From positions 8,866,001 to 8,930,000 of the forward strand of contig CM035350.1 of assembly GCA_020137815.1 (NCBI GenBank): a DNA stretch of 64,000 nt, read 5' to 3'. Below, piece after piece: positions 16,101-19,100 of this stretch. The position numbers were made by a program, and so were the translations under genes. Every line of letters begins with the position of its first letter. Position 1 is the stretch's first letter. The notes beneath the pieces are model-generated. The model was not told the origin of the DNA and made no database searches. It worked only from the letters and a program-made list of their open reading frames with translations. The stretch comes from Hormiphora californensis. Lineage: Eukaryota; Animalia; Ctenophora.

Positions 16101-19100
16101 GGCCCTCCTCTTCCCTTCTCTCACACAATGTCTCCCCTCTCAGGCACTATTTGGAGATGACGGTGTGACTCTGCTACTAAAGTTCCTCTCTGGGGACAGC
16201 GATAAGTTTAGTTCCGGGTTGGGTTACCACAAGCTCCTTCTCAGTGCGGTTAATGCTGTATGGTGCTGTGTCTCTAACACCAATCAGGTATTTTGAAACC
16301 AACCCCTGGAACCAATTAGGTAACCCGGGGTCATGTTCGCACTACGATTCAAGTCATGTCCAAACCCCCCGGATATATAATTGTGATCTCATTCTATCAG
16401 ACAATCAGTTTTATCATTTTGTTTCAGGACCTATTCCTGGAGCGTGGTGGAATCCCAATTCTTCTGTCTCTACTGGAAAAGTGTCCCCCAAGCATGCAGA
16501 ACCTGGTACTGGGTGCACTACTTGACCTGACATGAAGACCCCCGGGCCGTCTCACATGTCGTCACGTGGCGAGGAGTGGGTCAGATCACGGCGGTATCTC
16601 TCCTTGTTAGTTTGTGGAGGCAGGAGGAGGCAGCAATGGGTGTCAAACGGGATCTCAATAATGTTATGATAGGTAGGACGATCAACAATACCTTGTCCCT
16701 CAATTTCAAACTCAAGAGGGTTCAAACTTTATTATAATTGAAGCTGCTGTTGCCCTTGCTATAACACGTTATCCTGTCTGAATGCACTGATTTGAGAATC
16801 AACACGGGGTCTGGCGCCGCAAGACATGCTTTCTCTACATTATCATTGCCCCCATACTAATTATCTACACCCTACTACCCCTTCCTCCCTCAGATCCGGG
16901 TTGTCCACTACAGACAGGGTATACTAACCCTACTACCCCTTCCTCCCTCAGATCCGGGTTGCCCACTACAGGGTATACTAACCCTACTACCCCTTCCTCC
17001 CTCAGATCCGGGTTGCCCACTACAGGGTATACTAACCCTACTACCCCTTTCTCCCTCAGATCCGGGTTGTCCACTACAGGGTATACTAACCCTACTACCC
17101 CTTCCTCCCTCAGATCCGGGTTGCCCACTACAGGGTATACTAACCCTACTACCCCTTCCTCCCTCAGATCCTGGTTGTCCACTACAGGGTATACTAACCC
17201 TACTACCCCTTCCTCCCTCAGATCCGGGTTGCCCACTACAGGGTATACTAACCCTACTACCCCTTCCTCCCTCAGATCCGGGTTGTCCACTACAGGGTAT
17301 ACTAACCCTACTACCCCTTCCTCCCTCAGATCCTGGTTGTCCACTACAGGGTATACTAACCCTACTACCCCTTCCCCACCCTCAGATCCGGGTTGTCCAC
17401 TACAGGGTATACTAACCCTACTACCCCTCCCCACCCTCAGATCCTGGTTGTCCACTACAGGGTATACTAACCCTACTACCCCTTCCTCCCTCAGATCCGG
17501 GTTGCCCACTACAGGGTATACTAACCCTACTACCCCTTCCACCCTCAGATCCTGGTTGCCCACTACAGGGTATACTAACCCTACTACCCCTTCCCCACCC
17601 TCAGATCCGGGTTGCCCACTACAGGGTATACTAACCCGACTACCCCTTCCTCTCCCTCAGATCCTGGTTGTCCACTACAGGGTATACTAACCCTACTACC
17701 CCTTCCTCCCTCAGATCCGGGTTGCCCACTACAGGGTATACTAACCCTACTACCCCTTCCTCCCTCAGATCCGGGTTGTCCACTACAGGGTATACTAACC
17801 CTACTACCCCTTCCTCCCTCAGATCCGGGTTGTCCACTACAGGGTATACTAACCCTACTACCCCTTCCACCCTCAGATCCGGGTTGCCCACTACAGGGTA
17901 TACTAACTCTACTACCCCTTCCTCCCTCAGATCCTGGTTGCCCACTACAGGGTATACTAACCCTACTACCCCTTCCTCCCTCAGATCCGGGTTGTCCACT
18001 ACAGAGTATACTAACCCGACTACCCCTTCCTCCCTCAGATCCTGGTTGTCCACTACAGGGTATACTAACCCTACTACCCCTTCCTCCCTCAGATCCGGGT
18101 TGTCCACTACAGGGTATACTAACCCTACTACCCCTTCCTCCCTCAGATCCTGGTTGTCCACTACAGGGTATACTAACCCTACTACCCCTTCCCCACCCTC
18201 AGATCCGGGTTGCCCACTACAGGGTATACTAACCCTACTACCCCTTCCCCACCCTCAGATCCGGGTTGCCCACTACAGGGTATACTAACCCTACTACCCC
18301 TTCCTCCCTCAGATCCGGGTTGCCCACTACAGGGTATACTAACCCTACTACCCCTTCCTCCCTCAGATCCTGGTTGCCCACTACAGGGTATACTAACCCT
18401 ACTACCCCTTCCTCCCTCAGATCCTGGTTGTCCACTACAGGGTATACTAACCCTACTACCCCTTCCTCCCTCAGATCCGGGTTGTCCACTACAGGGTATA
18501 CTAACCCTATTACCCCTTCCTCCCTCAGATCCGGGCTGCCCACTACAGGGTATACTAACCCTACTACCCCTTCCTCCCTCAGATCCGGGTTGTCCACTAC
18601 AGGGTATACTAACCCTACTACCCCTTCCTCCCTCAGATCCGGGTTGTCCACTACAGGGTATACTAACCCTACTACCCCTTCCTCCCTCAGATCCGGGTTG
18701 CCCACTACAGGGTATACTAACCCGACTACCCCTTCCTCCCTCAGATCCGGGTTGTCCACTACAGGGTATACTAACCCTACTACCCCTTCCTCCCTCAGAT
18801 CCTGGTTGTCCACTACAGGGTATACTAACCCTACTACCCCTTCCTCCTCAGATCCGGGTTGCCCACTACAGGGTATAGAGCAGCAGCAGAGTGAGGTTAG
18901 TGCCCATGCTCTCAGCTCGACCCCTACTCTCGCCATTCTGGATGTAGGAGACAACATGCGGGCCAAGATATACGCCATGCTCTACAGGATTGGATTCGAC
19001 AAACTCCCGCCCCTACCAGCCAAGGATCAGGTAACGTTCCTGGGGTCTAGGGAAACTTGGGTGAACCGTAAAGTTCCTGGGGTCTAGAGAAACTTGGGTG

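What the first reader, a model, noticed from the sequence alone, without database searches (positions are those of the whole stretch)
16865..18876. A satellite made of splice signals: ~37 tandem copies of branchpoint + polypyrimidine + AG + 21-nt frame-preserving pseudo-microexon + GT
Seen: each 54-bp unit is GTA-TACTAAC-CCTACTACCCCTTCCTCCCTCAG|ATCCGGGTTGCCCACTACAGG, i.e. a perfect TACTAAC branch site, pyrimidine tract, CAG acceptor and the first 21 nt of the real CFAP69 exon (DPGCPLQ), followed by GTATAC. GTATAC is the apparent donor of a PPP1R10 intron in this window (~57186). Only the last unit continues into the conserved exon, and it is 1 nt shorter, so read-through from any upstream AG shifts into a stop-containing frame. 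Splicing AG->GT in any unit would instead add an in-frame 7-aa phase-1 microexon. Inference: the spliceosome faces ~36 decoy acceptors before the right one. This could be a stepwise-splicing ladder, a microexon generator, an NMD-coupled rheostat or an intron-birth intermediate.
Basis: partly seen in the sequence, partly recalled or inferred. Interest (0 to 1): 0.85.

Follow-up and report, generated by a model that had tools for sequence, protein, structure and literature searches.

The report
Splice-acceptor "mirage" minisatellite in comb-jelly CFAP69
A 54-base piece spanning the end of an intron and the start of the next exon of a cilia gene, likely from a comb jelly, is repeated 37 times in a row, but the one assembled transcript seen skips all the extra copies, so it is likely harmless and of a kind already known from lancelets (a "mirage").

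Summary
The array is real in the window: 16869-18877, 54-bp period, 37 acceptors, inside an intron of CFAP69, likely from a ctenophore. One spliced contig from a run guessed to be RNA joins 16672 straight to the last acceptor (18852) with no microexon; in the next intron, which holds an older array of the same kind, it also uses the last acceptor. The in-array donor scores below all 36 called donors, a unit's GT-to-AG span (32-35 nt) is under half the shortest called intron (82 nt), and there is no AG|GT recursive site. All 36 upstream acceptors would give a premature stop, mostly through 55/56-nt units rather than the short last unit. This matches amphioxus "mirages" (PMC3087553, PMC3902484). 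The scan found mirages before on other DNA in many animals; none of its notes and no paper found names a ctenophore. Open: decoy use hidden by NMD, and copy number in the RNA donor's allele. Verdict: new member of a known kind; interest 0.2.

The parts
16428..16672 (+). CFAP69 upstream exon (exon C); donor GT at 16673. The window has one extra base at 16533 that breaks the frame.
   Evidence: Homolog alignment. The RNA-guessed contig covers it and lacks base 16533; the chain of 19 exons is open only without that base.
16673..18851 (+). Host intron, 2179 nt; 221 nt if it ended at the first acceptor copy
   Evidence: Contig joins 16672 to 18852; lengths
16845..16893 (+). Unique intron end before unit 1 (TACTAAT, pyrimidine tract, first CAG); likely the ancestral 3' end. 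The repeat lacks 9 nt of it, which turns TACTAAT into TACTAAC.
   Evidence: Sequence comparison; the ancestral status is inferred
16869..18877 (+). 54-bp minisatellite, 36.9 copies. Unit = branch motif, pyrimidine tract, CAG and the first 26 nt of exon D; 36 decoy acceptors with exon-like starts from 16894 to 18799.
18850..18851 (+). Acceptor AG in use (last copy)
   Evidence: Contig positions 433/434 map to 16672/18852
18852..19030 (+). CFAP69 exon D (179 nt), Pfam PF21049 positions 644-697
19031..19142 (+). 37-bp x 2.9 repeat that starts exactly at the next donor GT; only the first GT has an exon-like 5' side
   Evidence: the contig leaves the exon at 19030
19540..19783 (+). Second, older acceptor array in the next intron: about 47 bp per unit, six YAG|ATC copies (starts 19552-19784), sharing only the first few exon bases; the last is used
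   Evidence: the contig's 19-nt loose end behind 19030 equals the start of the exon at 19784

Best explanation
This is a minisatellite made of 37 tandem copies of a CFAP69 intron end plus exon start; the one spliced contig seen uses only the last copy, so the other 36 are likely silent decoys removed with the intron. Likely origin (inferred): a short duplication across the intron/exon border, perhaps helped by the ATA shared by the exon (GTATA) and the intron (ATACTAA), then growth by slippage or unequal crossing-over. Likely selection rule (inferred): the last copy is the only one joined to the full 179-nt exon and closest to the downstream donor, so exon definition favours it. Any slip to an upstream copy would give a premature stop and would likely be cleared by NMD. 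The repeat most likely has no function.
For: Shown: the array anatomy. One 631-nt contig from run X1 (depth 7.5) joins five exons at the called sites, goes from 16672 to 18852 with no added bases, and in the next intron also takes the last of six acceptor copies. The in-array donor scores 2.8 bits, below 36 of 36 called donors; 32 of 122 unused exonic GTs in CFAP69 score as high or higher; the same GT inside the real exon scores 4.4 and is not used in the contig. 0 of 6 homologous proteins repeat the peptide. 4 of 11 intronic minisatellites in called introns touch a splice site, against 0.5 expected (P about 0.001), two at donors and two at acceptors in two genes, which points to a general mutational habit and not a CFAP69 device. 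From papers: mirages in amphioxus do not disturb regular splicing (PMC3087553 and PMC3902484, passages); an exon-centric proximity rule holds under exon definition in human data (PMC9225289, passages).
Against: The RNA evidence is one contig from one seawater run whose RNA status is a guess. It differs from the window at 2 bases and 1 indel, so it is another allele, whose copy number is unknown. Contigs drop rare forms, and NMD would hide wrong acceptors. 3 of the 4 substitution types in the exon-derived 21 nt are synonymous, against 16 of 63 possible changes (about P 0.05 by hand), a weak hint of coding constraint, though exchange with the functional last copy would give the same pattern. The enrichment test was designed after seeing the arrays, counts the focal array (3 of 10 without it; about P 0.01 by hand), uses 18 hand-called introns, and leaves out 6 of 17 arrays that lie outside called introns. 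Exon definition in ctenophores was not tested; most called introns are short.
Confidence: 0.8

Rival explanations
1. Copy-number rheostat: upstream acceptors are used at a meaningful rate, the products are destroyed by NMD, and longer alleles lower CFAP69 output.
For: All 36 upstream acceptors lead to a stop in the array or in exon D. The copies are nearly identical to the one in use (0-5 differences from the commonest unit). The intron-centric proximity rule would favour the first copy, which gives a 221-nt intron (PMC9225289 passages).
Against: The only contig uses the last acceptor in two successive introns. The stops come from scattered 55/56-nt units and from one missing C in a C-run, in a window with two other coding frameshifts (16533, absent from the RNA contig; and about 56905 in PPP1R10), so the 'all poison' pattern may partly be assembly error. 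Published mirages give no aberrant mRNA.
Confidence: 0.11
2. Microexon generator: a unit's 21 nt is spliced in between its AG and its GT, adding an in-frame DPGCPLQ repeat.
For: 21 nt and frame-preserving in 35 of 36 units. 3 of 4 substitution types in it are synonymous. GTATAC serves as a likely donor elsewhere in the window.
Against: Not in the contig. The donor scores below all 36 called donors. Unit 1 gives 25 nt and unit 21 has a further weakened donor. No homolog has the repeat, 0 of 6. A GT at a multiple of 3 from the acceptor is a one-in-three chance.
Confidence: 0.04
3. Assembly artefact: the real array is much shorter and the assembler expanded it.
For: The window shows draft-quality features: a 100-N gap with the last CFAP69 exon inverted behind it, two coding frameshifts and noisy stretches. 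No DNA run confirmed the array.
Against: 19 distinct unit sequences with recurrent variants at fixed sites (one in 20 units, one in 11, one 56-nt form in 4) fit a real array better than a copied consensus or random error. A second, diverged array of the same build sits in the next intron.
Confidence: 0.03
4. Stepwise (recursive) splicing ladder or intron-birth intermediate.
For: Each unit holds a branch motif, an AG and a GT. PMC3087553 proposes intron gain from mirages as a hypothetical model.
Against: No AGGT anywhere in the array, so there is no ratchet point and no exact proto-splice duplication; the inner site reads CAG-G-GT, and joining the GT donor to that inner AG adds 1 nt. GT-to-AG spans of 32-35 nt are far below the 82-nt shortest called intron. 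The intron is only 2.2 kb.
Confidence: 0.02

Closest known systems
[quoted passage not shown]
   Same: Like BflGb6, the unit is the 3' end of an intron plus the 5' part of the next exon. The unit length lies in the Adh3 range (10-72 bp). Units carry AG/GT signals. Regular splicing is kept.
   Different: Likely a ctenophore, not a cephalochordate. 37 copies against 3-6 in BflGb6. Every unit has an exact TACTAAC and is a multiple of 3 with an open frame. Allelic or somatic length change was not testable here.
Human F7 intron 7 37-bp VNTR (PMC1557585, abstract and Discussion read)
   Same: A minisatellite whose end unit spans the exon/intron border; identical pseudo-sites stay silent and the copy joined to the full exon is used.
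   Different: F7 repeats a donor 5-9 times and its pseudo-sites were shown to be functional by mutation; here an acceptor is repeated 37 times and nothing was tested by experiment.
Internal tandem repeats that modify human gene structure (PMC2812944, passages)
   Same: Minisatellites at exon-intron boundaries.
   Different: There some activate cryptic sites and form new introns; no such product is seen here, and the array lacks AGGT.

Membership tests
Mirage minisatellite | Head-to-tail repeat whose unit spans an intron/exon boundary of the host gene | tested here: met
   Unit = intron end plus first 26 nt of exon D; boundary confirmed by the spliced contig
Mirage minisatellite | Extra copies lie in the adjacent intron and keep splice signals | tested here: met
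   36 of 36 extra units keep CAG and TACTAAC
Mirage minisatellite | Regular splicing to the authentic site is kept | tested here: met
   One contig, from another allele, joins 16672 to 18852; minor forms cannot be seen
Mirage minisatellite | Length instability between haplotypes or cells | not testable with these tools
   No genome held; no DNA run listed; the metagenome scan gave only a spliced-type contig of a relative
Mirage minisatellite | Concerted evolution inside the array with divergent end units | tested here: inconclusive
   Units differ from the commonest by 0-5 changes; unit 1 has 4 and unit 36 has 2, within the range of inner units; the longest repeated run of unit types (3) is matched by 884 of 5000 shuffles
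Recursive splice site (ratchet point) | Juxtaposed AG|GT, usually in a very long intron (definition recalled) | tested here: not met
   No AGGT in 16865-18880; intron 2179 nt
Functional microexon | Short exon included in transcripts, with a usable donor, and conserved in relatives | tested here: not met
   Absent from 1 of 1 contig; donor below 36 of 36 called donors; peptide repeat in 0 of 6 homologs. Rare inclusion is not excluded.
Intron gain by tandem duplication of a proto-splice site | Duplicated segment holds AG/GT so that splicing restores the original mRNA exactly | tested here: not met
   No AGGT; the inner site is off by 1 nt
NMD-coupled regulated unproductive splicing | Regulated use of a stop-generating site, revealed by NMD inhibition | not testable with these tools
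   All 36 upstream acceptors would give a stop; no raw reads or NMD-inhibited data were available
CFAP69 (Pfam PF21049) | CFA69 ARM-repeat match and full-length similarity to named CFAP69 | tested here: met
   Exon D matches PF21049 at E 6.3e-12; 755 aa align at 76-77% to Bolinopsis and Mnemiopsis proteins

The most novel reading that the evidence does not exclude
Mirages are a recurrent feature of this comb-jelly genome, and this one is a live copy-number dial: decoy acceptors divert part of the CFAP69 pre-mRNA into NMD (or now and then add a 7-aa microexon) in proportion to array length, while the choice of the last of 37 identical acceptors shows exon definition at work in the sister group of other animals.
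Probability: 0.12. Interest if true: 0.55.

Novelty: new member of a known kind. Interest (0 to 1): 0.2.

Why it matters
As a neutral repeat it extends mirages to a likely ctenophore; I found no such report in the searched open-access library or in the scan's notes. It is also a tidy natural test of how a short-intron animal picks one of 37 near-identical acceptors: the last copy in two successive introns fits exon definition better than the shortest-intron rule. It would matter more if decoy use proved to scale with copy number, since that would make a repeat polymorphism a dosage control on a ciliary gene in an animal that swims by cilia. Nothing seen here shows that.

Tried and rejected
Whole-genome survey: no genome is held for this window, so generality rests on 36 introns in the window. 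Sequencing runs: no holder on record as RNA was listed; of 2 runs, X1 gave 1 contig and X2 none. Metagenome scan: 1 locus among 592 matching stretches, scan stopped at 25 of 64 parts; it is an intronless contig of a relative, 77% identical in protein, with no array and no peptide repeat. RNA folding of 18691-18900: z = +0.69, 151 of 200 shuffles fold as well; a 5-bp hairpin covers the GT and the branch motif in each unit, also in the one in use, so structure does not explain the choice. Higher-order repeat structure: not above shuffles. G-quadruplex motifs on the opposite strand: 5 strict and 20 loose matches, with no control run, so only a lead for instability. Two script slips were corrected: row 37 used shifted exon coordinates (redone: no stop), and two hand-called introns were changed, whose numbers are the ones quoted unless marked. 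No outgroup tree was built, so 'ctenophore' rests on best hits (5 hits among 38 candidates, 3 named, all ctenophores). Paper searches for ctenophore microexon or exon-definition work listed 15 of 111 papers, none mentioning Mnemiopsis; one search gave the proximity-rule paper. A search on AGGT intron gain was not completed. No supplements were opened; those of PMC3087553 hold the mirage alignments and could bear on the unit-level comparison.

Full report
1. Observation. Tandem Repeats Finder reports an array at 16869-18877, period 54, 36.9 copies, 95% matches. Splitting it at CAG|ATCC gives 37 acceptors. Of the 36 full units, 28 are 54 nt, 5 are 56 nt, and one each is 58, 55 and 53 nt. Each unit is an exact TACTAAC, a C-rich pyrimidine tract, CAG and the first 26 nt of the downstream exon, through GTATA. 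TACTAAC occurs only 5 times in the rest of the window on both strands. The shorter motif CTAAY lies near 11 of 36 called acceptors but in only 12 of 539 other intronic bins, so it looks like this animal's branch motif.

2. Host gene and organism. The exon after the array matches Pfam CFA69_ARM_rpt (E 6.3e-12). A homolog search gave 5 hits among 38 candidates at 75-83% identity; the 3 named ones are Bolinopsis microptera and Mnemiopsis leidyi. Nineteen exons from 633 to 20171 give 755 aa at 71-77% identity to 6 homologous proteins. The animal is therefore likely a ctenophore; no outgroup tree was built. No whole genome is held.

3. What is spliced. Of 2 runs listed, X1, a seawater run guessed to be RNA, gave one 631-nt contig at depth 7.5, and X2 gave none. 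The contig skips the two introns before exon C at GT..AG ends, ends its match at 16672, and continues with letters equal to 18852-18881. Laid on the downstream side, it covers 18850-19030, its upstream loose end is the end of exon C, and its positions show no added base at the joint. So it uses donor 16673 and the last acceptor, with no microexon. Its last 19 nt equal the start of the exon at 19784, so in the next intron it again uses the last of six acceptor-like copies.

4. Microexon: the AG-to-GT piece is 21 nt in 35 of 36 units, but its donor AGG|GTATAC scores 2.8 bits on a matrix from the window's own donors, below all 36; 32 of 122 unused GTs in CFAP69 exons score as high or higher; the same GT in the real exon scores 4.4 and is unused in the contig. 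None of 6 homologs repeats the peptide. Ladder: GT to the next AG is 32-35 nt, the shortest called intron is 82 nt, and the array has no AGGT. Intron birth by exact proto-splice duplication fails by 1 nt. Poison acceptors: all 36 upstream acceptors give a stop, 25 inside the array through 55/56-nt units and 11 at 18876 through the 53-nt last unit. The 54-nt unit itself is open in the coding frame. The last unit lacks one C in a C-run, and the window has two other single-base coding frameshifts, one absent from the RNA contig (16533) and one in a G-run before the PPP1R10 zinc finger, so that missing base may be an assembly error.

5. Against my reading. In the exon-derived 21 nt, the substitutions are C to T in 20 units, G to T in 11, T to C in 1 (all synonymous) and G to A in 1 (not synonymous); unit 1 has a 4-nt insertion. 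Three of four types synonymous against 16 of 63 possible changes is about P 0.05 by hand. That could mean coding constraint on the copies, or only that the array exchanges with the functional last copy. NMD could hide real decoy use.

6. Surroundings. The next intron starts with a 37-bp repeat at its donor (19031) and ends with an older 47-bp acceptor array. In a DEP-domain gene on the minus strand, a 28-bp array starts at a donor (54031) and an 11/33-bp array ends 2 nt from an acceptor (53152). Of 17 minisatellites taken, 11 lie in the 36 called introns (18 from homolog alignment, 18 by hand); 4 of the 11 end within 5 nt of, or overlap, a splice site, against 0.5 expected (P 0.0008 by simulation). 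The 47-bp array was counted as a miss. Without the focal array it is 3 of 10 (about P 0.01 by hand). The test is post hoc and small, but it points to a general tendency of repeats to arise at splice sites in this genome.

7. How it most likely works. Shown: the unit spans the boundary; the unique intron end sits before unit 1 and the full exon after unit 37; the last acceptor is used in one transcript contig. Inferred: a founding tandem duplication across the boundary, perhaps at the ATA shared by exon and intron; loss of 9 nt that turned TACTAAT into TACTAAC; expansion by slippage or unequal exchange, leaving 19 unit types; choice of the last copy by exon definition, as in the exon-centric proximity rule described for human genes (PMC9225289, passages); removal of slips by NMD. 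Folding does not explain the choice (z +0.69).

8. Known kin. Amphioxus 'mirages' are tandem repeats spanning exon-intron boundaries; BflGb6 has the same intron-end plus exon-start build, units keep AG/GT, and regular splicing is undisturbed (PMC3087553, passages; PMC3902484, passage). The human F7 intron 7 VNTR is the donor-side counterpart (PMC1557585, abstract and Discussion). I took the term 'mirage' from the scan's earlier notes and checked it in those two papers; the notes list many such cases in annelids, molluscs, urchins and a chimaera, which I did not check. The word ctenophore was met in no earlier finding, a sequence look-up found nothing alike, and paper searches found no ctenophore case; the library lacks most subscription journals. 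The Hormiphora genome paper reports 13% tandem repeats and many nested genes (PMC8527503, passages); the passages shown say nothing on repeats at splice sites.

9. Verdict. A real mirage minisatellite, a new member of a known kind, likely without function (0.8). Interest 0.2. The boldest reading left open is a copy-number-dependent leak into NMD with exon definition at work in a ctenophore (0.12; interest 0.55 if true).

Noticed in passing
window 16533: One extra base breaks the CFAP69 frame in exon C; the RNA-guessed contig lacks it. Assembly error or a null allele.
   Followed up: yes
window 20746-20845 and 21716-21952 (-): The last CFAP69 exon lies on the opposite strand behind a 100-N gap; likely a misoriented contig.
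   Followed up: partly
window ~56905 (-): Frameshift in a G-run in the last PPP1R10 exon; the CCCH zinc finger is in the next frame. Likely an assembly error.
   Followed up: partly
window 53866-54031 and 53154-53287 (-): In a DEP-domain gene, a 28-bp array starts at a donor GT and an 11/33-bp pyrimidine-rich array ends 2 nt before an acceptor.
   Followed up: partly
window 47327-47436 (-): 31-bp x 3.5 repeat with CTAAC in each unit, ending at a CAG just before a long open frame; may be another acceptor-side array. Not in a called intron, so not counted.
   Followed up: no
window 57495 and 57355 (-): Two acceptor-like sites in one PPP1R10 intron followed by similar starts (FSWKH and LSWKH); perhaps an old two-copy mirage or a dead alternative exon.
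   Followed up: partly
window 14170 and 14185: Two in-frame acceptors 15 nt apart in CFAP69; homologs come with and without a matching 5-aa insert (P0002 and P0004 with; P0001, P0003 and P0005 without), so this alternative acceptor looks conserved.
   Followed up: partly
window ~6481-10625: Element with inverted ends of about 125 bp enclosing a 62-bp minisatellite that flips direction at 9315, inside a CFAP69 intron; looks like a non-autonomous DNA transposon.
   Followed up: partly
window 51464-52810 (-): 449-aa intronless ORF with a likely signal peptide and a C-terminal hydrophobic segment, nested on the same strand in a 1454-nt intron of the DEP-domain gene; nested genes are common in Hormiphora.
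   Followed up: no
window 41135-41513: 18/36-bp repeat in an open frame (TTPVT-type units) in what may be an exon of the RRM gene.
   Followed up: no
window ~31200-36100 and ~42600-45500: Noisy, homopolymer-rich stretches that look like uncorrected read sequence (seen directly for 34000-36100; the others judged).
   Followed up: no
window 62925-63998 (-): Intronless open frame of 358 aa with GKGG motifs typical of KH domains (motif recalled).
   Followed up: no
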